Shown: one piece after another, positions 5,642 through 44,400 of the stretch
How the letters are laid out: every line of letters begins with the position of its first letter
Position numbering within the stretch: position 1 is the stretch's first letter
Source: Octopus sinensis
Taxonomy: Eukaryota
Reading direction: 5' to 3'
Length of the DNA stretch: 64,000 nucleotides
Assembly (NCBI RefSeq): GCF_006345805.1
Contig: NC_043004.1
Coordinates: forward strand, 25,420,001 to 25,484,000
Made by a program: the position numbers and the translations under genes
Notes under the pieces: generated by a model
Databases searched by the model: none
Told to the model about the DNA's origin: nothing
What the model saw: only the letters and a program-made list of their open reading frames with translations

Positions 5642-5793
5642 ATTAACAATCCCAACAATTGTGGCAACACCATACTTCATTTTGCAAGTGTTAAGGGCAA
5701 CACCAACATTATTCTAATGTTATTGAAAGCAGGAGCGAGTGTAACATCAACAGATCAAGATGGCAATACACCTTTACACTGGGCAGCACTAAA
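5642..5793 (+). CDS. Exon A: ankyrin repeats (INNPNNCGNTILHFASVKG...DQDGNTPLHWAAL)
   Basis: Polypyrimidine tract + ttcag acceptor; gtaaga donor; TILH and TPLH ankyrin motifs; absent from the ORF track. Confidence 0.85.
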
Positions 5794-5829
5794 GTAAGAT
5801 CACAACAATTTGTTTTTTATTTTTTTATT

Positions 5830-5894
<65 letters not shown>

Positions 5895-8800
5895 TGTATA
5901 TGTAAGAGAGTGTGTCTTTATACACACGAACCACACTATGCATGTATATGTCTGTATAAATGTATATGTACTACTATAGTAGCTGCCAAAATGACAGAGT
6001 TTATTTGAAAAACATTAGAAGGTGACAGAACCATAAAAACAGAAAAAATACAATGTAGAAAAGGGAAATTATTTGTAAAGAGAGAGAAAGAGAAAGGTAT
6101 TGTTAAGCTGGTGGTAGATTTAAGAGTGTGTGAAGGTGCATGGCTTAGTGGTTAGGGTATTCAGCTCATGATTGAAAGGTTGTGAGTTCAATTCCTGGCA
6201 GCGAATTGTGTCATTGAGCAAAACACTTTATTTCATACAGTTCTATATTTAAGAGATAAGGAAATTATGTATATTATTTACACTTGATGGATATTTGTTG
6301 TCATCTTGTTTGTGGTAAATAATGTAAATAATGTATTTTATTTCATGTTGCTCCAGACAACTCTGCTGGCAAAAATTAATAGTATCTGTTATTCAAAGGG
6401 CTAGCCTTGTCACAACGTGTGTCACACTGAACCTCCCTGAGAACTATGTTAAGGGTATGCATGACTGTGGAGCGCTCAGCCACTTGTATACTAATTTCAT
6501 GAGTAGGCTTTTCTATTGATTAGATCAACTGCAACCTCTGTCATTGTAACTGATGGAGTTCCGGATTTAAGTGTAATAAATACCAGAGAAGGAGAGGAAC
6601 ATAGCCATCAATGTGTTAGTGTAAGATCAATTAGGTGAGCTCTATGTCACTCTAATGCTGGGAAGCTATTTGTCACTATGTCTAATTATATCTATTTGTC
6701 TATATGTCTGTCTGTTTCATTAAGTGTCTATCTGTCTCTATCTCATCAAACACATGCACATGTATATATATACATATGCACACATACACTAACATACATG
6801 TTTGTGTGTGTAGTATATATATAAAAAGTGTAGAAATCCCTTTCAGTCATGAATGACCATGGGATTGTATCTAGAAAGTTCCTCTCTGAGGCACAAGTTC
6901 AGGCAAGGTTGTTTTGTGGAAGATCAACAGTTGGCCATGCATACCAGTTTCTCCTCTGCATGCCATCGATGTTGTCCTAGGGAAAGGCAAAAGCTGATAC
7001 AGCTGATACTGGAGCAATGTGAAATAAAATGTCTTGCTCAAGAACATAAGGCACAGTATAGTATGGAAATCAAACTCACAACGTTACGGTTGTAAGCCCA
7101 ACACTCTAATCATATAGTTAGATATGCTTGTATAATCTATATACTATTAAAACTTCCTTGCATGCTTGTCTGTAATTTAACACAGCCAAACTGGTGCATA
7201 ATGGAAAAATACTCTCAAAGTAAGGTACTTCTGAAATGTGAATACAAACAGAATAAAACAAGATTCCCATAAATCAGACCACTAATTCCTGAGATATGTG
7301 ATTTTTTGGGGTTTGTTTCCACAAATTTAAGCAGTGAAACCTGGAGTTATTACCCTTTACTGTGAATACTTTTATAACTAGCCAAACTGGCACATAATGG
7401 GAAAATACACTGAAAGTAAGGTGCCATTGAAATGTGAATAGAAACGGAATAAAACAAGTTTTGCATAAATCAAACCATGGGTTCCCAAGATTTGCGGTTT
7501 CTTCAGGCACCTTGAACTATTAGTGACCCAACGGGTCATGGATAGTTCAATATATAATATATACAATTATATCACGACATACTAAATATATATAACCTGA
7601 CTATTATTTCAGTCTTTGTAATATCTTTATTTTTACCTTCCTCATTCTTTCAGCAACCAACATGAAGTGGTGGCATTGTTGCTATACTATGGAGCTGATG
7701 TCAATATTCTCAATAAAAATGGGTGTAGTCCACTCCATGAAGCTATCCTTAAAAACAATATAAAGGTGGTGGAGATGGTACTTAATACAATAAATGTATA
7801 TAATGCTCAGGTTAGTGAATATATATATATATATATCCACTGTTACTAATATATTGATCTTAGAGAATGTTGTTCAATATTATTATCATCACTGATTAAG
7901 TAATACAACACACATCCTGTACAGAGAACTTTATGATAGTCATGATGATGATGAGGATGAGGATGATGGTGGTGGTGGTGGTGGTGGTGGTGGTGGTGGT
8001 GGTGGTGAGTTTGTGTGTGTGTGAATACTTACATTCTGCCCTTCACATGATAAAACATTGAACTATGGCCAATGAACACATTTTCTGATAGTTCTATGCT
8101 TTTAAAGACAAGCAGAACATAATCTCTCTTACTTGAAAAACAATTAAGGGTTTGTTATACCTTCCATCTCTAAATGTTGTGGTACCACCATGATATTGTG
8201 ACGGATGGTCTAGATACACTGTACCAGTGTAGTAACAGTAAACAAGATAACGATGCAGCTGTAATAGTGACAATCTCTTCATGAACCAACAATCAATATT
8301 CCAAACAAACTAACCAACTGACACCTACCTTCTGACTTCATTGTGAACTCTGCTTGAACGAACACACAAACTTCACTTTGACCACTACTGTTTATAATCA
8401 CTCAGTCTAGTCTATTTCTTGCAAGGGGACATTGTGACTCTCATCACAACATCTCCCCTTTTGAGATTTCAACTTCTGTAAGAGGTGAAGTTGATATTAT
8501 TTTTTTATTTTTCCAGCACCTCTCCCTCTCCTTCTTTTTTCTTTTAATTTGATGTCTTTTTCATTTTAGCATTATTTCTAAATGTTCAGTCTGTTTCCTT
8601 TTTCAACTGTTGCTTCTACAAGGTTCAATCTCTTTCAGTGCTGGCACCTCAGACATGTTATAGCAGACTTCCATTGGTATTTTCTTTCGTTTTTCATTTT
8701 GTCTTGTCTTTAATTAGTTTAGGTATCCCTTATGTTCCCAACATTGTTCTTTAATTATATACATCATGTTTCCTAATCTTTTTGTTACAAAACCATCTTC

Positions 8801-11616: not shown

Positions 11617-11654
<38 letters not shown>

Positions 11655-12124
11655 CATCTATCCATCTATCTATCTATCTATCTATCTTATTTTTTTATCC
11701 TGTACTTGTTTCAGTCATTAGACTAACTATGCTGGGTACAGCCTTGAGGAATTTTTAGTCGAATGAATCGACTCCAGTATTTATTTATTTTTGAGCCTGG
11801 TACTTATTCTATTGGTTTCTTTTGCTGAACTGCTAAGTTACAGAAATGTAAATGCATCAACACTAGTTGTCAAGTGGTGGTGGGGACAAACACAGACACT
11901 ACCCACACACACACACACACACACACATGTATGATGAGCTTCTTTCAGTTTCTGTCCACCAAATCCACTCACAAGGCTTTGATTAGCTAAAGGCTGTAGT
12001 AGAAGAAATTTACTCAAGGTACCACGTAGTGGGACTGAATCTGGAACCATGTGGTTGGGAAGCATGCTTCTTATCACACAGCCACACTGGCACCTGTGTG
12101 TGTATGTGTGTGTGCATGTGTTTG

Positions 12125-12159
<35 letters not shown>

Positions 12160-15100: not shown

Positions 15101-18100
15101 TTCAGCCACTTTGTCGATAGGACGTATTTTGTGCAGCCTGTCATCCTGGTTCTTGGCTGAGTTGAAATGTAGATTTTGAAGAAGCATCAAAAATCCATCA
15201 CCTGGCATCGTTTCCTGAAAGAAAGGTGTTGACATGGTTGGATCCCAATTCAAATATGACGCCAGGGTTAATTTCTTTATGATGCCCATCAGTATCGGCA
15301 AGGCAAGCAGAACTTTGGATTTTGTCGCTTGTGGTTGGAAACCAGTTACTGCCATGCCCAGGTCTGATATGCTGGGGATGGTTTTCAGCATAGTCATTCA
15401 TTTTGTCTGCTATATATTGGAACATTTCATCTGTCAAAAACTCGTGGAAGATTTCCAATGGCAAACTTCCATGTTCAAGGTTTGCCAGGTGTACCAGTAA
15501 ACTCATGCCATTGGACAAAATTGTCTCTCGCTCACCACAAGACATTCTCTTGTCCAAAGCCATTCACTGCTGCCCGCTGTACCTTTGATTCACTGGAATA
15601 TCATCATTGCTATTGGAATTATCTGATTCTGAACTAAGAAAATACTCACTCCCTGAGTTATCATCCAAGCCAGAAGAACTGGTGAGGTGATGGAGCTTGG
15701 TGTAGCTTGGCATGATGACTGTAAATTAGATGAAACAAGATGCAATGATGAAGTTGACGGCACCAGAGTGGTAGGATGCAACGACCATAAATTCAAGGAA
15801 ACAGGACATGATGACAAAGTTGACAGAGCAAGAGTGGCAAGACCAGCTTATCGGATTGTAAATATTTACATGAAACATCTAATCAGCCTGTTAGTTGGCT
15901 GGTGGACCAGTACTAACTCAGGCAATAGGTTCTAAGTCAGACAGTGTAAAATTATGTTGACTGATTTAAAGCATGTACATTGCAAGTGTAAATTTACAAC
16001 CATTTTAAAAGGGTTAATGACTCTGCTCTGGTGTATTTTCATAACATTTTGAAAAGCAGGAAAAAGTAGACTTTTCTTGATATGTTACTGACGAAATGAC
16101 CTGCAAGTGTGAAAAGTGAAGAAAGTTTATCCAAAAAGCTTGAATTAAGTGAAGTGAGGGAGAAAATCCCAAAAATTGTTCTTCTTGAAGTCTTAATGGA
16201 AGAAGATTGTCCTTCCAAACAATAATCCTCCTCCTCCTCCCCACTCCATCAACTTCTTTGCACACTAATCATCTCATCTTCAAGGTAATTAAATTAATAA
16301 AACCAGTTTATATATTTCTTTTGCATTCTCTTTTAGTATGTTTTTATAATTGTCATTTTCGTTGTAACTGCACCTTTTCTGTTTTAAAACCCATAAAAAA
16401 TTATTTTTGGGTGGTTTTGAGGGGCTGGAATGGATTAAATATAAAATTGTTTTGCAAAATGAGTAAATCGTAAAACAAATTAAACTCATACTGCAAGGTA
16501 TCACTGTATTTTCTTATGTACGTGAAACTTGAGTTACTGTTCAAATTTATAAAGTTACTGTATATGAAAATAACTCTGTGTGTGACTTTGTGTGTGTGTG
16601 TGTGTGTATCTATACATACACACACACACACACACATACAATCATCACCATCATCATCTATAGGAATTTAAAATTTTAATTACATGACAAATAACCAGTA
16701 TTTAGAACTGCACAAATACTTCCATATGTCTGAAGTAAAGCTTGTATTGTGTTCTAAGTGTCAATAGACCAAGTTTCATTTGGTTAAGTATTCTTCTGAT
16801 TAAAGTCACATAAATGCCAAAATGAACAGCTGATTGTTTGGCAATTTCCATAAATATTTTTTATTTATCTACTTTTATTTTCAGGTTCTGTTGAAGCCAA
16901 CACATGCTTTTCACCAAAAGATTCATCTCAATGAGTACATTCTTTCAAAACCAATTAATCTATACTTTTCTTTTAAAATAACTGATTAATTTTGATTCAA
17001 AGTCAATTTTTCACCTTACACACACTTTTTAACCTCACATATTTTGACCTAACATTTTTTAATGAATCAATTTTCAAATATCTGATCTCAAAGTATAGCT
17101 GAAGACTGGACCATCATTGCTTAAAAAAATGCATTCAGTTTGGTGGAGAACTGTCTCTACCCCTCCTACTTCCTTATAACCTCATTTCACCTTTTTTATT
17201 AATCTAATTTTTTCCCCTTTTTTTGTTACATTGTTTTGGTTTATTACTTTTCCTTTTTACCATTCCCCTTTCTCTACCCACCATTTTAATGTCTTTATTT
17301 TTCCAGATCAATCAACAAGATTCTCACAGTAGGACACCTCTATATATGGCATGTGAGGATGGATACCATAACTTAGTTGAATTGTTACTGAAGTCTAATG
17401 TTGATGTCAATATGGCTGATAAACATGGTAGAACACCTCTACATATGGCCTGTCGTGGTGGACACACAGAAATAGTACAAATGTTATTGCAGTTTAAAGC
17501 CAATGTCAATATGGTGGATGAGTATGGGAAAACACCTTTACATATGGCCTGTAGTGAAGGATACTCTGCCACAGTTTTAGTCTTATTGCAATTTAAATCT
17601 GACATTAATGTGGTAGATAACTGTTATAACACACCTTTACATATGGCCTGTCTTAGAGGACATCACAATACAGTAGAGGTGTTATTGCAGTCTAAAGCTG
17701 ATATTAATGTGGAGGATAGATATGGCAGAAGCCCTCTACATGTGGCCTGTTTTAGTGGACACTCTAGCACTGTAGAGGTGTTACTAAAATTTACAGCTGA
17801 TGTCAATATAAAAAATAAGTATAATAATACACCTCTACATTTGGCCTGTTATGGAAAACACTCTGGTATAGTAGAGATTTTATTGAAGTCTACAGCTGAT
17901 GTCAAAGTGGTGAATAACAAAGGTGATACACCGTTACATGTGGCCTGTGGTAATGGTGGAGATGCAGACACAGTGAAAATATTGTTGCAACATAAACCTG
18001 ATGTTAATTTGAAGAATAAATATAATAGCACACCTCTACATCTGGCAGTTCTACAGTAAGTTCAAGAACAGATCAAGAATCTTGACATCTGTTTCTTTTA

Positions 18101-18361
18101 TCTTTGGTTTTTCTGTTTCAAATAATATTTGTTTTCATTGAGTCGTTAATGTTGTCTCTCCACAGGTTATCAACGACTCATAACACTACTTCATTAAGTA
18201 ATTATCATCATCACCACCACTACCACCACCACTATCACAATCATCATCATCACCATCATCTTCATCATCACCTTTACCATCAGTGAGATTTGAGGAAATT
18301 TGCCACCAAACCTCAGGATAACACCTCTGCTAATTAAATTAGCATGTAATAGCTCTTTTAT

Positions 18362-18407
<46 letters not shown>

Positions 18408-18410
18408 GTA

Positions 18411-18466
<56 letters not shown>

Positions 18467-21400
18467 CAGAAAGGTTTATCATCGCAGCCCAAGATCAATG
18501 CTTACCTACAAGAAGCTACCAGGCCAACATATTAAAGAACGGTAGCTTCCCAACATGTGTATGTTGGGACAAAATGAAACCAATGAGCATGTTGTCTCCA
18601 TGTGCAGTCTTCTTGCGCCTACAGAGTATCTCAACAGGCATGATAGAGCTGCACAATATATTCACTGGGTAATTTGCAAAAACCTGGACCTCCCCCATGA
18701 TAAAAACTGGTGGGAACACAAACCACCGACAGTGCTTGAAAATGATCACATCTCACTCCTCTGGAACTTCACCATTCAAACTGACAGAAAGATAGATGCA
18801 AATAGGCCAGACATCATATTGAAAGACTTCAGACAAAAATCATGCCTCCTCATTGATATGACTGTCCTAATTGATATAAACATATCTGTCAAGACCTACC
18901 AAAAACTGAGCAAATATAAAGATCTTGAAATCGAAATTAGCAAAATGTGGAACCTGAAGACTAAAACAATACCTGTTGTCATAGGTGCCCTAGGAATGAT
19001 AGCAAAAGGGGTTGATTGCTACCTAGCTCAGATACCAGGAAACCCCAAAATGGCAGAAATTCAAAAGATAGTGCTCATGGGAACTGCCCATATCCTACAT
19101 AAAATAGTCTATGTAATTTCAAATTTTAAAACAAACACATAATTTTCTTATGGTTTCTTAAAGATTCTCTAAAACAACACTATGTACAAAGCCAAATATA
19201 TGGCACCCTAGGCATAACACTAACATGAACTTCTAACTTGTTGTCTCTTGAGGTCCCTGGGTGAGACTTGGAGCCAACTTGTACAAATGTAAAGCAAAAG
19301 TCAAACATAGAATAATAACAACAACAACAACAACAACAACAAAGAGTATAAATCAAGATATGACAGAGTTGGTCAATAGCTACATTGGATAATGTGTTGG
19401 CATTATAAAATCAAAACTGCTGACAAATGGTTCAGGCACCACCCTGAGGCTGTAACTGAGGGAGAAAATGTAACTATTCTTTGGGACTTCCCAGATGTAC
19501 AGACCAGACCATCAAAGCAAATAAACCAGATATTGTTGTGAAAGACTAAAACAATAAAGTCAGTTTATTGATTAACATAAGCGTACCCTGTGACCATAAT
19601 ATCTCAGCAAAAGAATTTGATAAACTCAGAAAATATAAAGATTTGCTAATCAAAATCGAGATGTGGCATCTCAAGATGGTTACAATACCAGTGGTTGTAG
19701 GAGCGCTTGGAATGATCAAAAAAAGAACTGAAAATTATTTAAGAATGATCCCTGGTTTACCATCCATGCAGGAAGTGCAAAAGATTGTCTTAACTAATAT
19801 GTCACATGTACTGAGAAGAGCATTGTTGCTGTGACTTTTCTTTCTTTTTTCCCTTTATTTTCTTTGTTTACTTTTTTTCTCTCTGCCTTTCTTCCCTTTC
19901 TTCTCTATCACATAAATTTGTAAATGAACAATCTGGTGAGTTTATTTTAATGGCCTACCAATGTATACAATGAGTTTCTCTGGTGTAGGTGTAAGGAAGA
20001 CAGTGTGTAATTTTGGTATTTCTATTTCCTTAAGAACCAGTGAGATATCCTTCAGACCTCCTTAACATGAATGACAAGGGGCTTATAGAAAGTATAAACA
20101 TCACAAAGAGGCTGTCTCCTTGGAATATGCCTTTGCAATACTGTATTCTATCAGTGATAATACAGTCACTCTTTGTGTTTAATTTCAAGATGGTGGCCCA
20201 CGATGAAGACAGGTCAGCTATGGCTTTGACTATGTTCACTGGAACTTTAGCAAGTTGAAGGGTTTCTAGCATCCATAAGTGGAGAATAGAGTCAAAGGCT
20301 TTCTTGTAGTCTAGCCATATTGAAACCAGATTCCTGCTACGCTGTCACACCTCTGACATCACAGTTTTGTTGATTAACAATTGCTCAGCACATCTCCAGA
20401 TTTATTTCTAGCTGCTTGTTCTGCTGTAATGATGGAATTGGTTTCACAATGGTCCTGGAGGAAGAAGTTTAAACATGCTGTATACATCTTATACATTAAG
20501 TTCTGGCATGCAACTGGCCAGCAGTTTTTTGCCATGTGGGTGGACCTGCATTTGGGGGTCAATTTTTTCTCTGCCAGAGCTAACCAGTGTGGTGTGCTAT
20601 TGTTCCTAATGAGAGCTTGCTGTATGTATGTATGTATGTATGTATGTATGTATGTATGTATGTATGTATGTATGTATTAATGCAACAGAAACAATTGTTG
20701 GCTTTATAATGTGAGAATCTATAATAAAGATGTAATTTTCTCTAGACGTATTTTTTGTTGTCAAATACTTTGAATTTCTCAAAATTCTGTGAAAGGATAT
20801 TTGGATTTATCTGTCATGCATAAGGATGCATCTGGCATCTATATTCTACTTACATTTACTGGTGTATGATTGTTGAACATTGATGACCAAATTCTTTTAA
20901 TACTCAATGCTTTATTGACATCGGCCAGAACTTTTTTCTTTCTTACATATATATATCATACTTCTGTTGTATCATATATACATTCCTATATAGTTCATGT
21001 GTGTATATATATTCATGTGTTGCTTAGATGTGTGTATTGAGGTCGTTATCGATGGAATTTGCTTTTATTCACTTATATTCATTGAAATCATTAAATTATA
21101 ACATTGTTATTAATTACCCCAATGTCTATGGTATTTGTATATTTTATTTTTACTTTTCTCTTTCTACTGTTTCAGGAACAATTATGATGTGGTGGCATTG
21201 ATACTATCCCAGGTTAGTGAACACATACACACACACACACACATATGTATATATGTGTGTATTGGTATGTGTGTATGTGTGTGTGTGTTGTTGTTGTTGT
21301 TGGTGGTGGTGGTAGTGGTGCTGCTGCTGTACACTACCAGAATTGGATACTTTGGTATATCTGTGTTGTGAGTTCAACTGTCAATAATATAATGGAATTA

Positions 21401-24400: not shown

Positions 24401-24656
24401 CTTCACACCAATTAATCCCTTTGTCCATTACCATCAAGTAATCCAGTCTCTCCTAATAACTCTAGTTACATTATGTAATTCACAATATTCTTTCTTTCCA
24501 CCCTCAAAAACATGACTCCACTGTTAATGAAGGTAACCCATCCAGGATGCTGGTCATATAAACACAACCATCAGAGTGGTTTTGTTTATATGAGTGGGAA
24601 GAGACCTATTGAAAAGAGGAGGTATTCCAAAATAACAAAGATACAAGCTGAAGAAG

Positions 24657-24688
<32 letters not shown>

Positions 24689-30600: not shown

Positions 30601-30638
30601 ATATATATATATATAGATAGATAGATAGATAGATAGAT

Positions 30639-30703
<65 letters not shown>

Positions 30704-30831
30704 ATTTACCCATTGGAGGAATTTACAGTCATAGATGTTAAATACTAATCGATGTGGTTAACTGTAACCTGGAACATAACTGATAGCCAGCACACTATCC
30801 ACCCAGATGATATATCCCTCCAAACTCACAG

Positions 30832-30866
<35 letters not shown>

Positions 30867-33800
30867 TTATTTTGAACTGCTACAAGTTCAAAATAACTTT
30901 AAAAATATTCTTCAGTCAGAAGATAAATTCTAATACCTTAATGTTCTTAAAATTCAAATCGACATCTCTGTCTATATATCTACCCTCTTTATAATGTTAT
31001 CAATCAATATGAAAATATGTATTAATGGAAACCCTCTATAAATGGCTGATGGTTGCTCAACATTTTAAAACTGTTGTAATAACTTACAATGTTTAAGTAA
31101 AATGAGGTAGCGTGAAACGATCGTACCAAATTACCGAAGATATTCTTGTTGCTTATTTTGATTATAATCACCCCATGGATTTATATGAATAACACCATGC
31201 AAAATTCTGGTGCATCTAACTTAAGTACCATATTCATTTGAATCTAAATTTTGCTGAACTTATAATATATATATATCATATATCATATATATAATATATA
31301 TATATATATTGGCCTGGTGCAGCCTTCGGGCTTCCCGGACCCCAGTTGAACCGTCCAACCCATGCTAGCATGGAAAGCGGACGTTAAACGATGATGATGA
31401 TGATGACATACGTAAGCAGGCAAACAGCTAGGCAGGCAGGCAAGCAGGCAGGTAGGTAGGTAGGTAGGTAGGTAGGTAGGTAGGTAAGTAGGTAGGTAGG
31501 CACACATATAAACAATATATACATGCACAGTGCTTCAAGGAGTCAGATCAGCTGCAATGGGTGGGTCTTCTCGAGTTTCTTGTATCACCAGAGATTCTGG
31601 TCCTTTGTCATTTCAATTATCAGACTCAGAATCCTGTGGTCAGCCTTCATCATATCACCCTGGGTCTTACTTGTCCACAAGTAACAGCCACATTTAATGA
31701 TCAGCATTTCTTTATATAGCTGTCTTGATCCATACTCATCACATGCTTGTAACTGCACAATCTTATTTCTTGCACATTATATCTGATTCCTCTGTTGCTC
31801 AGTTTTTCTCTCAACTCATTTATACTATGTCATTCTTTCAGTTTCCATCTACCAAACACCTCTCATAAGCCTGTGGCTATATTAGTAGATAGTGCCTAAG
31901 ATGCTGTGCAGTGAAACATAATTTGAACCATGGTTTTGCAATTGTGAGTGTCGTACTCTAACCAATAGGCCACATATTTTCACATACACACATATGTATG
32001 TATATATTTGTGTGTGTGTGTATGTATGCAGATGTACTGATATTTGTATGTATATGTGTGTATGTGGGGGTGGGCTATTTGTTGTGTAACTGTAGTGTAA
32101 ATATTGTTGTGTCTGTTAAGGTGTTTGTGTATGTTATGGCATTCAGTTAATGCAATGGGACTGAAACATTATTTCATTGTTTATAGATTTGCTCTCAACT
32201 CAGCTTGAACAAGGAAGACAGACTATCTGCTGTTGCTGTAGCTTGTTATTTAGCAGAAGAAGGAGCAAATTTTCATCACAAAAACAAAAAAAATAGGACC
32301 CCTCTTGACATCATTTGTAATTCGAATTTAAAAGAGAAACTCAACAGATTTGTGTCCATTCAGTACGTATTCACTAAACATTGGGGCATAACCCAGCAAA
32401 TTGTTTTGTATTTTGTATTTTGTACATTATTACATTTAAGGGAATTAATGAAGCAGTAGCAGTGTTTATTTTAGACACTACAGTGTAATCATGGGAAAAT
32501 AAAATTTAATTAGTTTTAATAAGTTTTAATTGATTTACACATTAAGCAACACCAGTTTGTTCAAGACTGTACTCTTGAATGTATAAAGCACAATTAGCTT
32601 TAATTAGTTTATACTTGGATCAATAGCAAATTTCTTTTTAGTCACTACTGTGTATTTTTGAACAGAGAAAGTTCATTTAATTTTAATTAGTTTAATTAGT
32701 TTACTCATGAAGCAATAACTGTTTGTTTTTGACACTACACTGTACTCAAAGAGATAAAATGTAATTAATTTTACTGTTTACACCTGAAGTGTCAGCTTAA
32801 ATCTCTCTAGAATTACCCACTTGTACACTTTACCAACAAAATTAGACACTGTACTACTGTACAATTTAACATAATACATACTTTTTCACATAATTAACAT
32901 AATTTATTTTTATTTCTATCAATGCTGTTGCTACAAATAACCCTTAAACTAACTCCTACATTTTTACTATAACGACATCACAGAGTTTAGTGATGTTTTC
33001 TTTATTATAACAACACCAATGGAATTAGTTATTGATCTTTTCTGTTTGACTGCACCTGTGGAAATTTCAAAGTTTTTTGAAAATTTTGAAATTTGGTGTA
33101 CTTATGTAATTTTCCATGCTGAATCTTGGGAGATAATTCACTTTTTCCAGAAATTTTTTTAAAAAGTTACAGTGGTTTAAAGTTTGATCATTTTTAGCCT
33201 GTTAGAAAATAGGATTTGGAAGCTGTCATTTTGTGCATGACTGTACGTGTTGTCAACTGTAAACAAATGAAACATTAACGGAATTCTGCGTCACACATAC
33301 CATATAACCCCTCATAACTTTTATTTTTGGGAATTTTCAGAAAATTTTTGCAAATTTGTATTCTAATCAAGGAAATTCATATGATAATGCAAAACCAAAT
33401 AGAAATTTTGTGCATGATTTAAGGCCTATTTAGCTGTTATTTTTAGCACATCTCACACCGCATGTATTTTAAGCATTTAATAAGTAACAAAAAGAATGCA
33501 TGGTTAGCAGCTCATTGACAGTTTGGCTTCTTACTATGGAAACAAGCAACTATATGTCTGGCTTTCGAATTGGCTAAAATAACCCAAAATTTGGCAATTT
33601 TAAAAGCTATTAACTCTTTAGTTAATGATTTATGGGGAAATTGAATTTCATGTCAATGATTACTTTACAAAACTACACCCACTTACCAAACATTCATATT
33701 TGGAACAAAAAATAGAAACTGAAAAGTGGCAGCCAAGCAGAAAAGATCCTTAGATATATTTTTCTTCCTTATAACAACAGCTGTGGGATTAATTATGTTG

Positions 33801-36800
33801 TCTTCACTTTAACAACATCACAGGAATTAGTTATATCTTCTTCAAGGTAACAATGGCAGTGGGATTAATTATATCTTCTTTACAATAACAGTATCACAGG
33901 GATTAGCTATGCCTTTTGTTACTGTAACATCAATGGATTCCTTCTTAAAGGGTTAATAATGTTACTTAATGATGTTTTTACAAAAGATGTTTAATGTGAA
34001 TATTATAATAATATTGTCTGTAATCTGCTTGATACTTGTAATGTTTTTGGTATTTTTATTTGATAGTCTGCAATGCTTATTGTGCAAAGATAACCAGGCC
34101 ACTGTAAAATTCTATCCATGCAAACATACAGTGACATGTTCAAATTGCTATTCCAAAAAGAAGCTTAAAAAATGTATCCGGTGCCAACAACCTATAACCA
34201 ACAAGAGCGGATTTGGTAAGAAATTCTTCGATAATCTGTCCGTTTGTCTCATCAATTTGTGCTGAGGCTACGTATTTTTATGATGTTATTGTTGTTGTTT
34301 AACCTCAGCTCAATTCTGACTTAGCAGTCTTATGATAAAAAGTTTTCCAGGTGTGAGTACCCTGTCTTTTCTCACTATCTATCACTATATCCACTACACA
34401 TTGTCTTCATCCAAATAGAAGACTTGTGTCACTTGAAGAGAGTACTGTCTATTAGTCTTATCTAATAAACAACATTGTAAGATAAGTGGTGGCTAACAGG
34501 AATATCAATAAATCTCCAGTTCTGACAGTAAACGTCTATTTTTAACACTCAACTGTGAGGCATTAGAGGTGGATAATGATTTAACAATATCTTGGGAATC
34601 TGATACTTAAAGTCAAAGGTAATTACTATTTTCAAAGTTTCGGCTTTGGTAAAACAGGAGATTCAATCACAAAATTTCAACTGCTAATTTAAAGACCAAT
34701 ATTAGAGACTAAATGTTAACTCAGTTGTGAATGTTTGTAATCATTAAAAGGTGATATGGATAATTGAAATTGTCTGTGTGTCTGTGAATATTGGCAATTG
34801 ATTAAAAGTGACTTGGATGATTACTGTATCGTGGCTGTCATTGGCTGTTCAAGTGCATGTTATTAAATGGAAAAACAGTTAGTATGAATCACTGTAAGAC
34901 ATTTTCGTGTATAAATATATTGTTTATTTTGTGTTCACCTTTTGTGGTCGATGCATGTAGTATGTTACAAAAACATGTGTGTTTACATACAAAGAAAGTT
35001 TTGATGTTTGCTTTTGCACTGAAAGAAGTAACATATGATATTTGTATTACTATATGTATGCATGTGTGTAATGGGAACAGTCATTTTGAGAATGTGTGTG
35101 TGATAAAATATCATTGTTTATGAACCGTATATCTTGTATCAAGGTGAATAGACATGTGAGTCACATGTAGGAAACTTGCACGTGGAGCTACAGAGAAGAC
35201 ATGTGTCTTTGAGTGAAATCTGGCAGGAACTGGTTGCCATGTAGCTCAGAATGAGGCTAGTGTCTCAGAACGAGGCTACTGTATCAAAGCGAGGCTAGTG
35301 TATCAAAGTGAGGCGAGATGCCTCATCAATGTATTCGCCTACTCACATGTTACTATGTAATATGTAGCTCTGCTGCATAGCCTCCTGCTAGACTTGAAAG
35401 AGTCAAAAAAAAGTAGAGATGGCATATGTAAATATGCAGTGCAAAAAGCAGGTAAGGACATGGAATACAAACATAAGGATGCAATACAATAAAAAATGTG
35501 CAACTGAAATGAAAAGGCAAAGCATGGTTAGAGTAAATAGAATATGAACACAAAGAAATAAGCAAATTTTTCAAGTCGATTAGGTAAAGTTCGAAGGAAT
35601 ACTGTGAAGAACAAAACTGCAATGTTGGTGATACATGTTGAAAAGCTTTTGCTAAGTTCACTAATAGTTCATTATAGTTCAGATGTGTATAGTTTTAAAT
35701 AGTTTGGTGGGTCAATGTACATGGTGACCACTATGAGTAGTAGTGATGTATGTAAATAGAGGAGGGGTTGGTGTGTGTGATGGTGTTGGTGGTTGTTGCA
35801 GTGGAGTAGCATTTGTTTTATGTTGTACTGTGAATGTGGGAGGTGTATGAGGTGGTATTGTGTATGCCCGCTTAAGCCTGTCTATTGAGACAGTTTCCTT
35901 TTTACCATTAATGTCTATAGTATATAGTTTGTCTGTGTGTGACAGGACGCAATAGGGTCCCATGTATGGAGGTGTGAGAGGGGTTTTCACAGCGTCTTTT
36001 CATAGAAACACATGGGTCCAAGAATCAATGTCTTTTGGAACTGATGATTTAGTGGTTTGGTGTTGTGTTGACATGGGTGACAGTTCTTGCATGTATTTGC
36101 AAAGTCTGTGTATGTACATAGTGGGGTCTTGTGTGGACAGATCCACTGGGGCCATCATCTGACCTGGCAATGAAAGAGGTGAGCTATAAACAAGTTCTGC
36201 TGGGGAATAAACGAGATGCTCCTTTATTGAGGCTCGACAGCCAAGGAGGACTATTGGAAGATATTTGCTCCAACGCTGCTGATCTGGGTAAGCATGCGAA
36301 GCAGCTTTCATTTGACAGTGGGATCATTCCACCATACCGTTGAATTGTGGATGGTTACTGGTGGTTCGAATCCAATGTGCGCCTATGGTCTTCGTGAGCT
36401 CATGGAAGAGTTGTGATTCAAACTGTTTTCCACGGTCAGTAGTGATGGTGGTATGGAATCCGTACCGTGATATCCATCCTGTAAGAAAAGCTTTGGCAAC
36501 AGATTCTGCAGTGATATCTACTAAAGGAATAGCTTCTGGCCAACGTGTGAAACAATCAATGCAGGTGAGCAGGTAGGTATATCCCTGGCTGACTGGTCAA
36601 GGTCCGACAAGGTCGATGTGTACATGGTTGAAATGCACATCTAGTGTGTTGAATGTGCCAAGGGGTGCACGGACGTGCCTATGCACCTTTGACAGAAAAG
36701 GCAGGAGCGTGACCAAGCAGTGATGTCTCATCTCATATTTGGTCAAAAGAATCTAGCCAAAATGAGTTTCACTGTGGCAGAGTTTCACTGTAGGTCTCCG

Positions 36801-39800: not shown

Positions 39801-42800
39801 CCTGGAACCATGTGATTGGGAAGCAAGCTTCTTCTACACGGCCCTGCTCAATCTGTAGAAAAGGCATAGGAAGAAACCCCATAAGACATACCCAGTGTAA
39901 GCTATGAACACATAAGAGGTGCAACAATATCAGGGGAAGGTTAACAGGGAAAATAGTTTTTGTGTGTGGAATGTGCACAAGTACAATAATCACTAAAAAT
40001 GTTCAGAAAATAGACTCCCTCCAAAGCTAGGGGAGAAATCTAGAAGTAGTTGATAACTTCCATTAGCTAGGTGACCAAGACAGTAGTGGAGGTAGATGCT
40101 CCAAGAGCATAGCTGTGAGAATGAAAATAGGCTAGGCAAAGTTCAGAGAGTTCCTACCTCTGTTAGTAACAAAGGGTCTCTCCCTCAGAAGGAAAGATGG
40201 ACTGTATGATGCCTGTGTGTGAACAACCATGCTACATGGCAATAAAACATGGGCTGTAACCACTGAGGACATGCATAGGCATTAAAGAAATTAAGCTAGT
40301 ATGCTTTGCTGGATGTGCAATGTCAGTGTGCATGTATGGCAGTGTTAGCATCTTGAGAGAAAAGATGGGCACAAGAGGGATCATTTATGCTGAGTTGGGA
40401 AATTAGAGTTTAGAATTTTAAAGAAAAGTTTAGGTAAGGATTTAACTTGGAGAGAGAAAGGTGGCTGTCAGACTTGTAACACCATACCCCTTTAATTTTC
40501 TTTGTTGTTTCTACTCTGTGTAAATTTGCTCTGTTAACATATACATATCTACTTGAATATTCATTGTCTGAAGATTTTCAGTCTTTGTTTTCTCTCTATT
40601 TACTTGTATACATGTACATATATTTTGTATATCAGACCCGAGCAGTTTTATTTCTTTATTTGCATCATTGTCTCCATATCTGCTCACCTAGATTCATCTT
40701 ATAGTCACTCTTTACCCCAACAGACTTGGTCCCACATAAAGAGATCAGAGTGTAGGTTCAAATCATTTGAGCACTACTAAGTGCTTTCTATATTTATAAT
40801 CTCTGGATCTCATCTGGTGATCTGGTGAATCTATATATGCCTGTGTGTGCGTGTGTGTGTGTGTATGTATGTGCATATGTATACATATAGTATTGCAATA
40901 TATCAAGAAATGTGGTATTGTGCTGCCTACAGGCCCCAATTAAGTAGGTATAATTCAATAACTTTCTTAGTCTTGTGCACTTGGAGTGTACCTTGCTTTG
41001 GAATTCAGAAGATGATTATAGTGAAAGACAGAGGTGAGAGAACACTATTATGTTGTAGATTTAGCACAGATAACAGAAACGAAAGGCAAAGAAAGAAAAC
41101 TAAAGTCTAATTGGCGAATAGTTAAATGAGATAATTGCATCATTGTAAAATCATGTAGGCATCTTAATTCACAGCAGACATTTAGAAGGGCAAGTGTATT
41201 TTGTTTTGATCCTAAATATTCAGCTATTACATGGTACCAGTATAGAAAGTATAAAAATGTTGACCAAAACCAGTTGATTTGATAATAAGAACATCATACA
41301 ACAATAAAATATGGATTCTTTTCTTTTCTACTCTAGGCACAAAATTTTTGGGGAGTGGGCTAGTCAATTAGATCGACACCAGTACACAAATTTATTGACC
41401 CCGAAAGGATGAAAGGCAAAGTCAACCTCAGCGGAATTTGAACTCAGAATGTAAAGACAGACAAAATACCGCTAAGCATTTCACCCGGCATGCTAACATT
41501 TCTGCCAGCTCGCCGGCTTCAATAAAATATAGATTATATAAATAGAAAAGCTTTACTATAAAGGGTAAAATATGAACTTATTTTGTTTTCAGAGTGTCAA
41601 AAACTTGAAGAACAAGACCTCATGAAGATTAGTTATCTGTTGGGAAGTAAATGGTGGCAAGCAGGTGCGTATAAAATAACTTTACCAAATTGATTTCTAT
41701 AAATCATCATCATCATCGTTTAACGTCTGCTTTCCATGCTAGCATGGGTTGGACGGTTCAACTGGGGTCTGGGAAGCCCGAAGGCTGCACCAGGCCAGTC
41801 ATATCTGGTGGTGTTTCTACAGCTGGATGCCCTTCCTAATGCCAACCACTCCATGAGTGTAGTGGGTGCTCTTTATGTGCCACCGACACAGGTGCCAGAC
41901 GAGGCTGGCGAACAGCCACGCTCGGATGGTGCTTTTTACGTGCCACCAACACAGGTGCCTTTTAACTGAAAATTTATCTGAAAATCTGTGTATATTACTC
42001 ATATTTGATTAAACATTTACCAAATTTAACATAGTGGTAAGGACAAATGGCACAATAAATTAAATATTGTTTCTTGGAGTAAGAAACAAAAATATCTCAT
42101 TCTGTAGGGGCAATGGTTTTGTTTGTGTTTCTTTTTTTATTACATTTACTGATAGAGGTTGGAGGATGGTGGAATTTAACCTTGTTTTGATAGTATTATA
42201 TGCTTTCAGAGATATTCTTTTCTAAATATGCCTGTCTAACTAATTAGAACTTGATACTGTCAGTCAACCCCTCTCAATTATCACTATGACATGTATGGTC
42301 AAATTTTGGGTAGAAATCAAAGATCAATGACATGTACGATCAAAGTCACTGTCACCTGACTATCCATCTGGTTAAGGACTATACTTTCACTGACATGCTT
42401 GTGGTGCAATGTTGTAGTTTTGACATGTTGCTATATCTCCATTGTCCAGTTTCCATCTAGGTGAGGATGACACTTCACTGACAAGTCGTGGTTATTTGTA
42501 AATGGTGTAATGTTGCAGTCTACATATGTTGTTGTCTCCCAATTATCCGGTCTAGTTGAAGATCATACTTAAATGACATGCACTGGTTAACTGTGAGTGT
42601 GGTGCAACATTACTGTCTAGACACACCATGTCTCTCCATTGTTCAGTTTCCATCTAGTTGAGAACTACTACACTTTACTGACATGCAATGGTTAATTTAT
42701 GTGGTGCAGTGTTGTAAACAAGATATGTTGTAGTCTTTCCACTGTCCAGTCTAGGTGAGGACTACACTTCGCTGACATGTGGTGGTTAATTGTATATTGA

Positions 42801-43096
42801 GCAGTGTAGGCATATTTTATGTTATTAATGTTGTTGTTACTGCTATAGTAATTCATATTATTGTATTTTTTGTAGGTATCTTCTTAGGAATTAAAGTTGT
42901 TGAACTGGAAATTATCATGTGTGATCATCCACTTAAAACTGTAGATCAGAGTTTCCAAATGTTATACAAATGGTTAAACCGTAGTGCAACTGGGGAATGC
43001 ACAGTTAACCTCCTAAGAAAAGCTCTTGAGGAAGCTGAATGTTTTTATGCACTTGATTACCTTCAGGAAAATCGGGAATTTCAATGTAAGTGCTGA
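5642..43096 (+). CDS. Multi-exon gene, 5' end not seen: ankyrin-repeat / RING / death-domain protein, Mind bomb (MIB2)-like E3 ligase derivative; join(5642..5793,7654..7810,17307..18055,21176..21212,24131..24340,32187..32362,34067..34215,41593..41664,42876..43096)
   Basis: All eight internal introns are GT-AG with compatible phases (2,0,2,0,0,2,1,1). Exon lengths sum to 1923 nt = 640 aa + stop with no internal stops. Translation gives ~13 ankyrin repeats, AVACYLAEEGANFHHKNKKNRTPLD (Mind bomb-like), a C3HC4 RING and a death-domain-like C-terminus. Confidence 0.8.
6135..6562 (+). mobile_element. tRNA-derived SINE (another family)
   Basis: Head ggtgcatggcttagtggttaggg...gagttcaattcc with A and B boxes, followed by a ttgagcaaaacactttatttca core. 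Confidence 0.6.
6835..7115 (-). mobile_element. Degenerate SINE
   Basis: gagcaatgtgaaataaaatgtcttgctcaagaac core (reverse of the core in the 6135 element) and a tRNA-like head at the right end. Confidence 0.5.
7136..7545 (+). mobile_element. Non-autonomous Helitron-like element
   Basis: A|TCTATATACT 5' end; hairpin tgaccc-aac-gggtca (7524-7538) just before a CTAG-like end (here ATAG|T); internal ~100-bp direct duplication (7183-7280 / 7379-7478). Confidence 0.6.
7654..7810 (+). CDS. Exon B: ankyrin repeats (NQHEVVALLLYYGADVNILNKNGCSPLHEA...)
   Basis: tttcag acceptor, cag|gttagt donor, phase 2 to 0; overlaps ORF 7667..7849. Confidence 0.85.
8153..11323 (-). mobile_element. Gypsy (Mag-like) LTR retrotransposon, internally deleted
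   Basis: LTRs 8153..8451 and 11025..11323 (TG...CA); 5-bp TSD GGGTT; PBS-like tggcaatgagg; PPT aaaaggggaga; gag knuckles CYGCGGLHFRKDC; protease LQLDTGSD; integrase remnant. Confidence 0.92.
11700..12095 (-). mobile_element. SINE family 1, older diverged copy
   Basis: Colinear with the 30189 copy. Confidence 0.75.
12205..12700 (+). mobile_element. Penelope-like element 3' fragment (GIY-YIG C-terminus)
   Basis: IWKIHDQN...RAKPYTNDTRNCSFCIAEKMYI resembles the PLE endonuclease C-terminus. Confidence 0.65.
12824..16506 (+). mobile_element. Tigger/pogo DNA transposon (pseudogenised HTH + DDE transposase)
   Basis: TA|cagtagaaccttgcagta ... tactgcaaggtatcactg|TA. Motifs KANHGWFDNFKKRTG, QVFNCDKTGLFWK, LDNAPAH. 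Confidence 0.88.
14640..16013 (-). mobile_element. piggyBac transposase fragment nested in the Tigger
   Basis: ORF 14822..15397 DRLHKIRP...ICMDKSLWKFKRRLKFKQYNPTK..FGVK; right end aaaaggg|TTAA; left TIR not found. Confidence 0.85.
17307..18055 (+). CDS. Exon C: large ankyrin exon with 8 TPL(H/Y)/SPLH motifs
   Basis: ttccag acceptor, ca|gtaag donor; ORF 17223..18059 shows 33-aa periodicity. Confidence 0.92.
18362..18465. repeat. (AAT)n microsatellite
   Basis: Directly visible. Confidence 0.95.
18466..19310 (+). mobile_element. 5'-truncated R4/Dong-like non-LTR retrotransposon (CCHC + RLE endonuclease)
   Basis: ORF 18555..19142: EHVVSMC...RHD...RPDIIL...LLID...K..KY..L; flanked by AAT and AAC repeats. 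Confidence 0.8.
19342..20030 (+). mobile_element. Second, more degraded R4/Dong-like 3' fragment
   Basis: KPDIVV...K..KYKDL...IPVVVGALG; homologous to the previous copy. Confidence 0.75.
20030..20620 (-). mobile_element. Non-LTR reverse transcriptase fragment (R4-like)
   Basis: WLDYKKAFDSI and GIFQGDSL motifs. Confidence 0.75.
21176..21212 (+). CDS. Exon D: 37-nt mini-exon (NNYDVVALILSQ), second ankyrin helix
   Basis: tttcag acceptor, cag|gttagt donor, phase 2 to 0; completes the repeat begun in exon C. Confidence 0.75.
21773..24040 (-). mobile_element. CMC/Chapaev3-like DNA transposon, near full length, pseudogenised
   Basis: TTA|CACTGGTC left end, degenerate right end. Motifs FCHVCG, WREP..H...CYFC, LFIDSS, GDLKV, LHIKLGLMK, SDEQGECFHQDI. 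Superfamily assignment is from recalled motifs. Confidence 0.75.
24131..24340 (+). CDS. Exon E: ankyrin repeats (QTPFLLSLSEGHLGMVHMFVSKGADVNAVDKDGNNCLH)
   Basis: acacag acceptor, gag|gtaagt donor, 210 nt, phase 0 to 0. Confidence 0.85.
24985..25250 (+). mobile_element. RTE-like endonuclease fragment
   Basis: ITGDFNIHVGQQ motif. Confidence 0.5.
25255..25590. repeat. Dispersed ~340-bp repeat, copy 1 (possible solo LTR)
   Basis: Colinear with 34824..35170. Confidence 0.75.
26657..29830 (+). mobile_element. RTE (BovB-like) LINE, near full-length ORF, pseudogenised
   Basis: WNVGTL...RPERRTALIA...ALSET, GDFNARVG, TAWMHPRSKHWH.IDY, SQCGFR, FVDLSKAF, LYTDD, YSCETW. Confidence 0.92.
29836..30100 (-). 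mobile_element. SINE family 3, diverged copy
   Basis: Similar to 50150..50665. Confidence 0.6.
30189..30583 (-). mobile_element. SINE family 1, near full length
   Basis: Near-identical to 1..252 and 60881..61256. Confidence 0.88.
30597..30702. repeat. (TA)n(GATA)n microsatellite
   Basis: Directly visible. Confidence 0.95.
31043..31128 (+). ncRNA. Degenerate Penelope-type hammerhead motif
   Basis: tgg CTGATGG, long stem II (catttta/taaaatg, ttgtaa/ttacaa), GAAA cgatc GTA cca; palindrome ACGATCGT; A9 is changed to G. Confidence 0.5.
31310..31406 (+). mobile_element. SINE family 3, 3' end with (GAT)n tail
   Basis: Reverse complement of 41703..41790. Confidence 0.7.
32187..32362 (+). CDS. Exon F: Mind bomb-like terminal ankyrin segment (SAVAVACYLAEEGANFHHKNKKNRTPLDII)
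   Basis: ttatag acceptor, ca|gtacgt donor; resembles the recalled MIB motif [25 protein letters not shown]. Confidence 0.82.
34067..34215 (+). CDS. Exon G: C3HC4 RING finger (CLLC...PCKHTVTCSNC...CIRC)
   Basis: gatag acceptor, g|gtaag donor; all eight zinc ligands present with MIB/IAP-type spacing. Confidence 0.85.
34824..35170. repeat. Dispersed ~340-bp repeat, copy 2
   Basis: Colinear with 25255..25590. Confidence 0.75.
35712..38980 (-). mobile_element. Degenerate Gypsy internal region (gag, protease, RT, RNase H, integrase)
   Basis: LGDCKPSQLL, LVDKGAACS, AYIDD, VDASNTAIG...YSTFIQELLAMY, PYMGPY...VSIDRLK. LTRs not securely identified. Confidence 0.88.
39470..39848 (-). mobile_element. 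SINE family 1, diverged copy
   Basis: Colinear with the other copies. Confidence 0.75.
39855..40390 (+). mobile_element. RTE-like LINE 3' ORF fragment
   Basis: LEVVDNF..LGD...AKFREFLPLL..KGLSL...LYDACV..TMLHG.KTW. Confidence 0.7.
41318..41517 (-). mobile_element. SINE family 2
   Basis: gaccccgaaaggatgaaaggcaaagtc...gaactcag; also at 49263 and 54463. Confidence 0.75.
41593..41664 (+). CDS. Exon H: death domain N-terminal part (LEEQDLMKISYLLGSKWWQAG)
   Basis: ttttcag acceptor, cag|gtgcgt donor, phase 1 to 1; L-x2-I-x3-LG-x2-W pattern of death-domain helices 1-2. Confidence 0.72.
41703..41960 (-). mobile_element. SINE family 3
   Basis: (CAT)n tail + gtttaacgtc...ccatgctagcatggg; similar to the 50150 copy. 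Confidence 0.75.
42362..42795. repeat. ~95-100-bp tandem repeat, 4-5 diverged units
   Basis: Recurring tctag(g/t)tgag..ctacactt..ctgacatg..gtggtgca.tgttgtag. Confidence 0.75.
42876..43096 (+). CDS. Exon I: death domain C-terminal part (IFLGIKVVELEIIMCDHP...DQSFQMLYKW...TVNLLRKALEEAE)
   Basis: tgtag acceptor; LG, QML-x2-W and TV-x2-L-x2-AL death-domain pattern. Ends at TGA 43094-43096 or splices at gtaagt after 43085. Confidence 0.78.
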
Positions 43097-44074: not shown

Positions 44075-44400
44075 TTTCTCTTGTATGATGCACCTTAGGG
44101 TCTAGTCTCTACCCATTTTCTCTTTCTCTCTCCTTGGAACATGTATATGATGTATCTTAGGACCAAGTTTCTCTCCCTTCACCCATTCTTTCTCCTATAA
44201 CAATTCTGTTGTATGAAGTACCTTAGGGACTAATTTATCTCACCCTTCTCTTTCTCAATTTATCTATCTAACACTTCTTTTATATGATGTACCTTAAGGC
44301 TTAGTCTCTCCCTTTCTTTTACCTAATAACATTACTTTTAAATGTACTTTAGGGTCTATTCTTCCTTCCCACTCCTTTCCTTGCTCTTTATGTAGATTTC
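44075..44400. repeat. ~60-bp tandem repeat, about 5 units
   Basis: Recurring tatgatgtaccttaggg.cta.tctct. Confidence 0.7.

What the first reader, a model, noticed from the sequence alone, without database searches (positions are those of the whole stretch)
5642..43096. Mind bomb-derived ANK(n)-RING-death domain gene: a possible invertebrate immune or cell-death E3 ligase
Seen: nine phase-compatible exons join into one open frame. It encodes ~13 ankyrin repeats, the Mind bomb-type split last ankyrin, one intact C3HC4 RING and then a death domain. Established: canonical MIB1/MIB2 end in three or two RINGs and have no death domain; MIB2 ubiquitylates RIPK1 and cFLIP in death-receptor signalling. 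Inference: exon shuffling at a phase-1 intron put a death domain in place of the distal RING(s). That would give a sensor/scaffold + ligase + homotypic-adaptor protein that could plug directly into MyD88/IRAK/FADD-like complexes.
Basis: partly seen in the sequence, partly recalled or inferred. Interest (0 to 1): 0.8.

Follow-up and report, generated by a model that had tools for sequence, protein, structure and literature searches.

The report
Octopus Mind-bomb offshoots with death domains
This octopus gene is a cut-down relative of the ubiquitin ligase Mind bomb 2 that ends in a death domain where its parent has the ring needed for activity in humans, and it is one of at least 37 similar gene copies that likely work as adaptors in cell-death or immune signalling rather than as ordinary ligases.

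Summary
Nine GT-AG exons join into one frame equal to residues 29-668 of an NCBI Octopus protein with a misleading automatic name. The start exon lies 330 bp upstream of the window. Contigs from two studies bridge RING exon to death-domain exons with gaps of exactly the expected length. The tail folds as a death domain (Z 13-15), and the family profile is closest to RIPK1.

The parent is MIB2, matched exon for exon. But the RING kept is RING1, which is dispensable in human MIB2; the matching MIB1 fragment is inactive. This RING lacks three of five E2-contact residues, and the substrate-binding MZM/REP region is gone. So 'E3 ligase' is doubtful and 'death-domain adaptor' is more likely.

The larger finding is the family: at least 37 collinear ANK-RING-death loci, with two-RING intermediates and broken retrocopies. 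All named members are Octopus. The window gene is an early-branching member with orthologues in three species. Ten literature searches found no description. Function is untested.

The parts
5642..5793 (+). Exon A (second coding exon; ATG exon lies 330 bp upstream of the window), ankyrin repeats
   Evidence: 152 nt vs 149 nt MIB2 exon, same phases 0/2, 20 of 50 aa identical
7654..7810 (+). Exon B, ankyrin repeats
   Evidence: 157 nt in both this gene and MIB2, phases 2/0, 24 of 53 aa identical
17307..18055 (+). Exon C, internally expanded run of about 7.5 ankyrin repeats
   Evidence: the MIB2 exon at this place is 155 nt
21176..21212 (+). Exon D, 37-nt mini-exon completing an ankyrin repeat
   Evidence: phases 2/0; matches P0001 381-393
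24131..24340 (+). Exon E, penultimate ankyrin and first half of the Mind bomb-type split ankyrin
   Evidence: 210 nt in both this gene and MIB2, 35 of 70 aa identical
32187..32362 (+). Exon F, second half of split ankyrin and cap
   Evidence: 176 nt in both, 32 of 58 aa identical; held in X4 contig 17; best Foldseek match of the orthologue model is MIB1 ANK 8v0e
34067..34215 (+). Exon G, C3HC4 RING homologous to MIB2 RING1; eight zinc ligands intact, loop-2 motif C-I-R-C-Q
   Evidence: Pfam PF13920 E 1.6e-9; 29 identities to the MIB2 RING1 exon, phase-1 end as in MIB2; RING alignment
41593..41664 (+). Exon H, phase 1/1, death-domain helices 1-2
   Evidence: 71-letter gap in X9 contig 24; model
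42876..43096 (+). Exon I coding part, death-domain helices 3-6 and stop
   Evidence: 82 matches in own genome
43097..43682 (+). 3' untranslated part of the last exon (minimum extent)
   Evidence: contigs of X1 (to 43682) and X4 (to 43601) run on from exon I; contigs cannot show the true end

Best explanation
This is a spliced octopus gene derived from Mind bomb 2 that encodes ankyrin repeats, MIB2's first RING and a death domain, and it likely acts as a death-domain adaptor with little or no ligase activity of its own. Shown: exon structure, MIB2 ancestry, death fold, splicing in contigs, orthologues in three Octopus species, and at least 37 collinear paralogous loci. Inferred history: a MIB2 duplicate lost the MZM/REP exons and expanded its ankyrin array, giving ANK-RING1-RING2 genes that still exist; then the last phase-1 exon (coiled coil + catalytic RING2) was replaced by a two-exon phase-1 death-domain module, and that form multiplied. 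Inferred mechanism: the concave ankyrin face binds a cytosolic partner or cue, the RING1 stays as a structural or binding unit, and the RIPK1-like death domain joins homotypic assemblies with adaptors such as FADD or the CARD-death (CRADD-like) proteins present in this genome, which links the bound partner to caspase or NF-kB output.
For: MIB2 match exon for exon in length and phase. Tree of the last ankyrins + RING1: family plus the two-RING P0023 at 100/100, grouped with octopus MIB2 paralogues at 95/95, apart from MIB1. No RING2 remnant in the window. No MZM/REP Pfam hit in P0001, and the protein starts in the exon matching MIB2's first ankyrin exon. Human data: second RING required, first-RING mutant active; ANK-RING1-2 of MIB1 inactive and mostly monomeric. 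Of the five MIB1 RING3 E2 contacts (V965, M989, P993, I994, R996; numbering checked on octopus MIB1 RING3), the window RING has L527 and L555 but I559, R560 and Q562. Death fold and RIPK1 DD as best PDB profile hit, E 6e-11, ahead of ankyrin-3 2.7e-7 and PIDD 2.6e-6. Three CARD+death ORFs on C14 (two confirmed by Pfam). FADD and CRADD reported in molluscs (bioRxiv 2023.12.11.571055 passages). Long-term purifying selection on RING, ANK and DD exons, median dN/dS 0.28-0.35 for distant pairs.
Against: No partner, tissue, stimulus or phenotype was measured. The immune or cell-death role rests on domain content and on the pattern of expansion. The inactivity of RING1 is extrapolated from human proteins tested with one E2 or one substrate. 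All eight zinc ligands are kept here, and 9 of 36 intact family RINGs carry a full C-P-hydrophobic-C-R motif (these include near-copies). Octopus MIB2 RING2 itself has His at the Pro position, so motif reading is imperfect. Ankyrin-G DD, a non-apoptotic death domain, ties with FADD, PIDD and RIPK1 in fold score. P0018 sits inside the expanded clade yet ends in a second RING, so a single clean swap is not proven.
Confidence: 0.5

Rival explanations
1. It is an active E3 ligase. The death domain replaces both the MZM substrate module and the coiled-coil dimeriser: it docks the protein on death-domain complexes and clusters RING1, which then ubiquitylates RIPK-like or other components.
For: Eight zinc ligands are intact and the RING exon is under purifying selection. 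9 of 36 intact family RINGs have C-P-[ILVM]-C-R, mostly one subclade, so the family can regain a canonical E2 surface. Oyster IAPs combine death domain and RING (PMC8917759 passages).
Against: The retained RING is the one dispensable in human MIB2, and the MIB1 ANK-RING1-2 fragment is inactive. The window RING has Arg at the hydrophobic E2-contact site and Gln at the linchpin Arg. The catalytic exon is absent.
Confidence: 0.2
2. It is a decoy or brake. It occupies death-domain surfaces or MIB2's ankyrin partners without passing a signal on, and so dampens death-receptor or NF-kB signalling.
For: It keeps the MIB parts described as dispensable or mildly autoinhibitory (ANK, RING1) and loses both active ends. 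IAPs are least expanded in Octopus among ten molluscs, which leaves room for another brake family.
Against: The ankyrin array was lengthened and varies widely between copies (crude motif count 0-11 in partly truncated models). This fits binding diversity better than a generic brake. No functional data.
Confidence: 0.15
3. The family is a birth-and-death by-product in repeat-rich small chromosomes, or serves a non-immune role (for example a cytoskeletal or neuronal scaffold like ankyrin's own death domain); most copies do little.
For: Many broken copies: intronless arrays with stops on C1 and a tandem array of RING exons on C29. No significant positive selection in close DD subclades (omega 0.4-1.9, none significant). 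Part of the count is on unplaced contigs that may be haplotype duplicates (16 of 37 triplets).
Against: The window gene is intact, spliced and kept in three species (85% identity to the O. bimaculoides orthologue over its 271 aa). 20 of 20 DD exons sampled were stop-free over the 60-62 codons compared, and distant pairs show dN/dS near 0.3.
Confidence: 0.15

Closest known systems
Mind bomb 2 (MIB2; MZM-REP-ANK-RING1-cc-RING2)
   Same: Direct parent: same exon lengths and phases over the ankyrin and RING1 exons, split last ankyrin, 40-58% identity per matched exon, sister in the tree.
   Different: No MZM/REP substrate region, longer ankyrin array, no linker before RING1, and coiled coil + catalytic RING2 replaced by a death domain.
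Mind bomb 1 (MIB1)
   Same: Split last ankyrin; best solved non-designed sequence match (8v0e, E 4e-18) and top Foldseek match.
   Different: Different intron positions in octopus (RING1 exon ends in phase 0), three RINGs, far more distant in the tree.
ANKDD1A/ANKDD1B (ankyrin repeat and death domain proteins)
   Same: Ankyrin array plus death domain; appear as look-alikes of paralogue P0007 in the ESM Atlas at 0.91-0.92.
   Different: No RING among the families shown for those clusters; the octopus genes come from MIB2 by exon structure, so the likeness is probably convergent (not tested by tree).
Oyster IAP types BIRC10/BIRC11 (BIR-DD, BIR-DD-RING)
   Same: Mollusc lineage-specific expansion that combines a death domain with a RING (PMC8917759 passages).
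   Different: BIR instead of ankyrin, RING is C-terminal, unrelated origin; IAPs are least expanded in Octopus.
RIPK1 / PIDD death-domain scaffolds
   Same: Death-domain profile closest to RIPK1, then ankyrin-3, PIDD, Fas; repeat array plus C-terminal death domain resembles PIDD's layout (recalled).
   Different: No kinase, RHIM, ZU5 or LRR parts detected by Pfam; binding partners untested.

Membership tests
Mind bomb E3 ligases (MIB1/MIB2) | N-terminal MZM (MIB_HERC2/ZZ) and REP substrate-binding region | tested here: not met
   No PF06701/PF18346 in P0001; genome-wide hits for both families include none on C8; protein starts at the first-ankyrin exon
Mind bomb E3 ligases (MIB1/MIB2) | Ankyrin array with split last repeat followed by RING1 | tested here: met
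Mind bomb E3 ligases (MIB1/MIB2) | C-terminal coiled coil + catalytic RING (MIB1 RING3 / MIB2 RING2) | tested here: not met
   No match of the MIB2 last exon in the window or among 16 genome matches on C8; death-domain exons follow RING1 in contigs
Active RING-HC E3 ligases | C3HC4 zinc ligands | tested here: met
   C525, C528, C540, H542, C546, C549, C558, C561; PF13920 E 1.6e-9
Active RING-HC E3 ligases | E2-contact residues and linchpin Arg (MIB1 V965, M989, P993, I994, R996) | tested here: not met
   L527 and L555 fit; I559, R560, Q562 do not. Sequence reading only; some ligases deviate
Active RING-HC E3 ligases | Ubiquitin transfer in vitro | not testable with these tools
   needs an assay
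Death domain (DD subfamily) | Six-helix death fold | tested here: met
   Models; Z 13-14.7 to four DD structures for the orthologue model
Death domain (DD subfamily) | Pfam PF00531 above cut-off | tested here: inconclusive
   No hit in whole P0001; exon I alone 18.2 bits vs cut-off 22.6; 7 of 7 paralogous sequences reach 22.6-42.7 bits
Death domain (DD subfamily) | Homotypic binding to another death domain | not testable with these tools
   needs pull-down or proximity labelling
ANKDD1A/B | Orthology to ANKDD1 | not tested
   No ANKDD1 sequence was placed in a tree; exon structure points to MIB2

The most novel reading that the evidence does not exclude
Octopuses built a large repertoire of intracellular sensor-adaptors out of the half of Mind bomb that Notch signalling does not need: dozens to over a hundred genes with variable ankyrin arrays wired to a RIPK1-like death domain. 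They would be an NLR-like innate recognition system of independent origin, and one branch turned the silent RING1 back into a working ligase. The window gene is the conserved, early-branching representative.
Probability: 0.25. Interest if true: 0.85.

Novelty: new variant of a known kind. Interest (0 to 1): 0.62.

Why it matters
Cephalopod gene-family expansions highlighted so far are mostly neural or sensory (protocadherins, C2H2 zinc fingers, S-crystallins, receptor-like channels; PMC9068888 passages). This family has at least 37 full-architecture loci and 146 last-ankyrin exon matches, hidden under mixed automatic names (MIB2-like, secG-like, ankyrin-3-like, PSMD10-like), and points to death-domain signalling. 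It gives a concrete candidate system for octopus innate immunity or cell death. It preserves the steps of a domain swap (MIB2, then ANK-RING-RING, then ANK-RING-death). It also makes an open question testable: what the conserved but Notch-dispensable ANK/RING1 half of Mind bomb does (raised in the discussion of bioRxiv 2024.03.01.582834), since this family kept only that half and some members carry a restored E2-binding motif.

Tried and rejected
Pfam on the whole protein missed the death domain; resolved by paralogues, profile and fold.

Donor of the death module was not identified. The same two-exon module, with the same phase-1 intron, occurs without nearby ankyrin/RING matches at C26:23.37-23.41 Mb (two tandem copies) and C2:61.19 Mb. 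The DD tree (64 columns, long branches, DAPK misplaced, 7 family rows dropped because the cutting pattern failed) is too weak to give direction. A suspected TNFR-like exon upstream of the C26 module looked like a transposase fragment on a wider reading (motif recalled) and was dropped.

Positive selection on DD exons: not significant in 4 of 4 subclades. Homodimer prediction of residues 398-662 gave 'no answer', score 0.00, alignment not used; no evidence either way. No run was on record as RNA; the four laid are guesses. ESM Atlas for residues 455-668 gave only leads under 0.9, and no listed cluster showed Ank + RING + Death together, but small clusters cannot appear. In the tree row P0178 was mis-cut (32 bits) and fell with bryozoan sequences; it was ignored. 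Earlier scan findings: none by place, words or sequence. The 2015 O. bimaculoides genome paper was not held.
Full report
Observation. Joined, they reproduce residues 29-668 of P0001 letter for letter. P0001 is an NCBI model named 'ankyrin repeat, PH and SEC7 domain containing protein secG-like' from Octopus sinensis; orthologues in O. vulgaris and O. bimaculoides are named 'MIB2-like'. The ATG exon is 330 bp upstream of the window. Pfam finds 12 ankyrin stretches and one C3HC4 RING but no death domain in the whole protein. The AlphaFold2 model (46 aligned sequences, mean pLDDT 88.5, low confidence at 298-350) shows about 14 ankyrin helix pairs including the split one, a cap, the RING and a helical bundle at 578-660.

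Death domain. Exon I alone scores 18.2 bits against PF00531, under the cut-off, while 7 of 7 paralogous sequences tested reach it. The model of the orthologue P0004 (82% identical over exon I; pLDDT 91.2) was compared with 48,161 PDB representatives. The six best rows are all death domains: ankyrin-G Z 14.7, THOC1/p84 14.1, FADD 13.7 and 13.6, the PIDD-RAIDD complex 13.6, RIPK1 13.0. The tool warns that Z near 13 can be reached by unrelated helical bundles, but the sequence profile agrees independently. A 13-sequence family profile ranks RIPK1 DD first (E 6e-11), then ankyrin-3, PIDD, Fas, CRADD, TRADD and FADD.

Splicing. Four runs of guessed RNA type from four studies were laid on 31700-44500. 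In X4, one 2068-letter contig holds exon F and exon I with its UTR, separated by 219 letters, the sum of exons G and H minus a two-letter overlap. In X9, one contig holds exon G and exon I, separated by 71 letters. X1 has a contig with 100 unplaced letters before exon I; no listed X19 piece bridges. These are assembled contigs and the inner pieces were not printed, so the junctions are inferred from coordinates. Intronless broken copies on C1, in which ankyrin, RING-start and death-domain parts run contiguously, show that a paralogous mRNA of this layout also existed.

Parent gene. Two canonical Mind bomb genes carry both MIB_HERC2 and SH3_15 matches: C26:20.27-20.32 Mb and C13:61.8-62.0 Mb. 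By sequence they are MIB2 (two RINGs) and MIB1 (three RINGs). The window gene matches MIB2 exon for exon: 152/149, 157/157, 210/210 and 176/176 nt with the same phases, and 29 identities in the RING1 exon, which ends in phase 1 in both. The exon before A also matches MIB2's first ankyrin exon. Exons C and D differ: the ankyrin array was lengthened. MIB2's last exon begins in phase 1 and encodes the coiled coil and RING2; here two phase-1 death-domain exons stand in its place, and no RING2 remnant is found in the window or on C8. In a tree of 47 rows and 172 columns rooted on MIB1, 35 of 36 family rows plus the two-RING protein P0023 form a clade (100/100) that groups with octopus MIB2 and its REP-bearing paralogues (95/95). 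The 36th row, P0178, was mis-cut. The window gene and its O. bimaculoides orthologue branch outside the 33-row expanded clade (100/99); their order relative to P0023 is unresolved (87/48).

Family. Own-genome searches gave 82 matches for exon I (137 candidates scored), 114 for exon G (150 scored) and 146 for exon F (150 of 156 scored); all are lower bounds. Ordering these hits by strand with gaps up to 40 kb gives 37 ANK-RING-death runs, 21 of them on chromosome-scale contigs (mostly C27 and C29), and 91 ANK-RING pairs. Intactness of each locus was not checked, and unplaced contigs may duplicate haplotypes. MIB2-type RING2 exons occur at 10 further loci, among them C18 (three), C28 and C29 (two), which are ANK-RING1-RING2 genes. 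P0023 has that layout and starts like the window protein, a likely intermediate. P0018 lies inside the expanded clade but ends in RING2, so later recombination or more than one swap is possible. Taxonomy: 10 of 10 ANK/RING-death proteins looked up are Octopus, and all 28 hits of the profile search carry Octopus names where shown, some cut short. The four named non-octopus relatives looked up (flatworm, amphipod, two bryozoan) have no death-domain hit. Squid and cuttlefish genomes were not searched directly, so 'octopus-specific' is provisional.

Mechanism. The literature read here points the other way for this member. In human MIB2, mutating the second RING abolishes cFLIP ubiquitylation while the first-RING mutant stays active, and the N-terminal zinc-finger region binds the substrate (PMC7815719, section 8 read). 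RIPK1 binding needs the MZM domain (PMC5912950, passages). Purified MIB1 ANK-RING1-2 does not self-ubiquitylate with UbcH5B and is mostly monomeric, and MZM-REP tethered to ccRING3 suffices for Notch (bioRxiv 2024.03.01.582834, first fifth and passages). The octopus gene kept the dispensable half and lost both active ends. Mapping that paper's E2 contacts through octopus MIB1 RING3, the window RING keeps two of five (L527, L555) and has I559, R560, Q562 at the others. Among 63 protein records with RING and death domain (49 distinct RINGs, 36 matching all eight ligands; six of these were mis-registered by the pattern, none in the positive class), 9 have C-P-hydrophobic-C-R, mostly one subclade and partly near-copies. 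I therefore read the window protein as a likely ankyrin-to-death-domain adaptor (0.5), with active ligase (0.2), decoy (0.15) and non-immune or near-neutral family (0.15) as rivals. Candidate partners exist (CARD-death ORFs on C14; FADD and CRADD in molluscs, bioRxiv 2023.12.11.571055 passages), but none was tested. Selection: distant pairs give median dN/dS 0.28-0.35 for exons F, G and I. Close death-domain subclades give 0.4-1.9, none significantly above 1, with changes recurring around the helix 3-4 region.

Novelty. Ten full-text searches were read as listings with abstract openings; none showed a description of this architecture or expansion. The 2022 cephalopod genome paper has no 'ankyrin', 'mind bomb' or 'ubiquitin' in its main text and none in the one short supplement held (PMC9068888). 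Its other supplements, the 2015 octopus genome paper (not held) and subscription journals were not seen and could list the family. The gene models and Pfam calls are already in public databases, under mixed names. Nearest known kinds are MIB2 (parent), ANKDD1A/B (ankyrin + death) and oyster BIR-DD-RING IAPs (PMC8917759, passages). It fails membership of the Mind bomb ligases on two defining features and is best filed as a new MIB2-derived variant family. Interest 0.62: a real, sizeable, apparently undescribed expansion with a clear origin and a direct test, but no functional data.

Noticed in passing
G000:C1:41735007-41762743 and C1:107079844-107101647 (L117): Tandem arrays of intronless, stop-ridden copies of the family (ankyrin end, RING start, linker, death domain contiguous), about 9 units in the first array: processed pseudogenes amplified in tandem.
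   Followed up: partly
G000:C29:13056251-13062543 (L121): At least nine tandem copies of a RING1-type exon within 6.3 kb, some frameshifted, with repeated exon-E fragments downstream; either decayed duplications or an alternative-exon array.
   Followed up: partly
G000:C14:63829000-63872000 (L093, L094): Three single-ORF CARD + death domain (CRADD/RAIDD-like) genes in a cluster; two confirmed by Pfam.
   Followed up: partly
G000:C26:23375000-23407000 (L097-L100): Two tandem copies of the same two-exon death module, separated and preceded by low-complexity exons, with no ankyrin or RING match within the 120 kb read; 3 Mb from MIB2; candidate donor or derivative.
   Followed up: partly
G000:C9:40288658-40302392 (L118, L090): Long ORF with leucine-rich repeats and a Roc/COR-like GTPase region followed 10 kb later by a death-domain exon (MFHAS1-like layout by eye; not scanned with Pfam except the death domain).
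   Followed up: no
G000:C26:19.38-19.58 Mb, C26:20356401, C9915, C10200, C6102, C6146: Further MIB2 paralogues that carry REP repeats without MIB_HERC2 matches (REP-ANK-RING types).
   Followed up: partly
window 51979-52776 (-): 266-aa open frame with at least 7 C2H2 zinc fingers, a member of the known octopus zinc-finger expansion.
   Followed up: no
window 1768-3884 (-), 9980-10970 (-), about 35900-39000 (-): Broken LTR-retrotransposon-like remnants by eye; the last lies in the intron between RING and death-domain exons and is covered by contigs in run X1.
   Followed up: no
window 13250-14600 (+), 18466-19831 (+), 26657-29900 (+): Broken DNA-transposon-like and LINE-like remnants in introns, recognised by eye from translations.
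   Followed up: no
P0003 (O. bimaculoides isoform X2) and P0002 (O. vulgaris model): Both models drop part of the RING exon, which may reflect alternative splice sites inside exon G or model errors.
   Followed up: no
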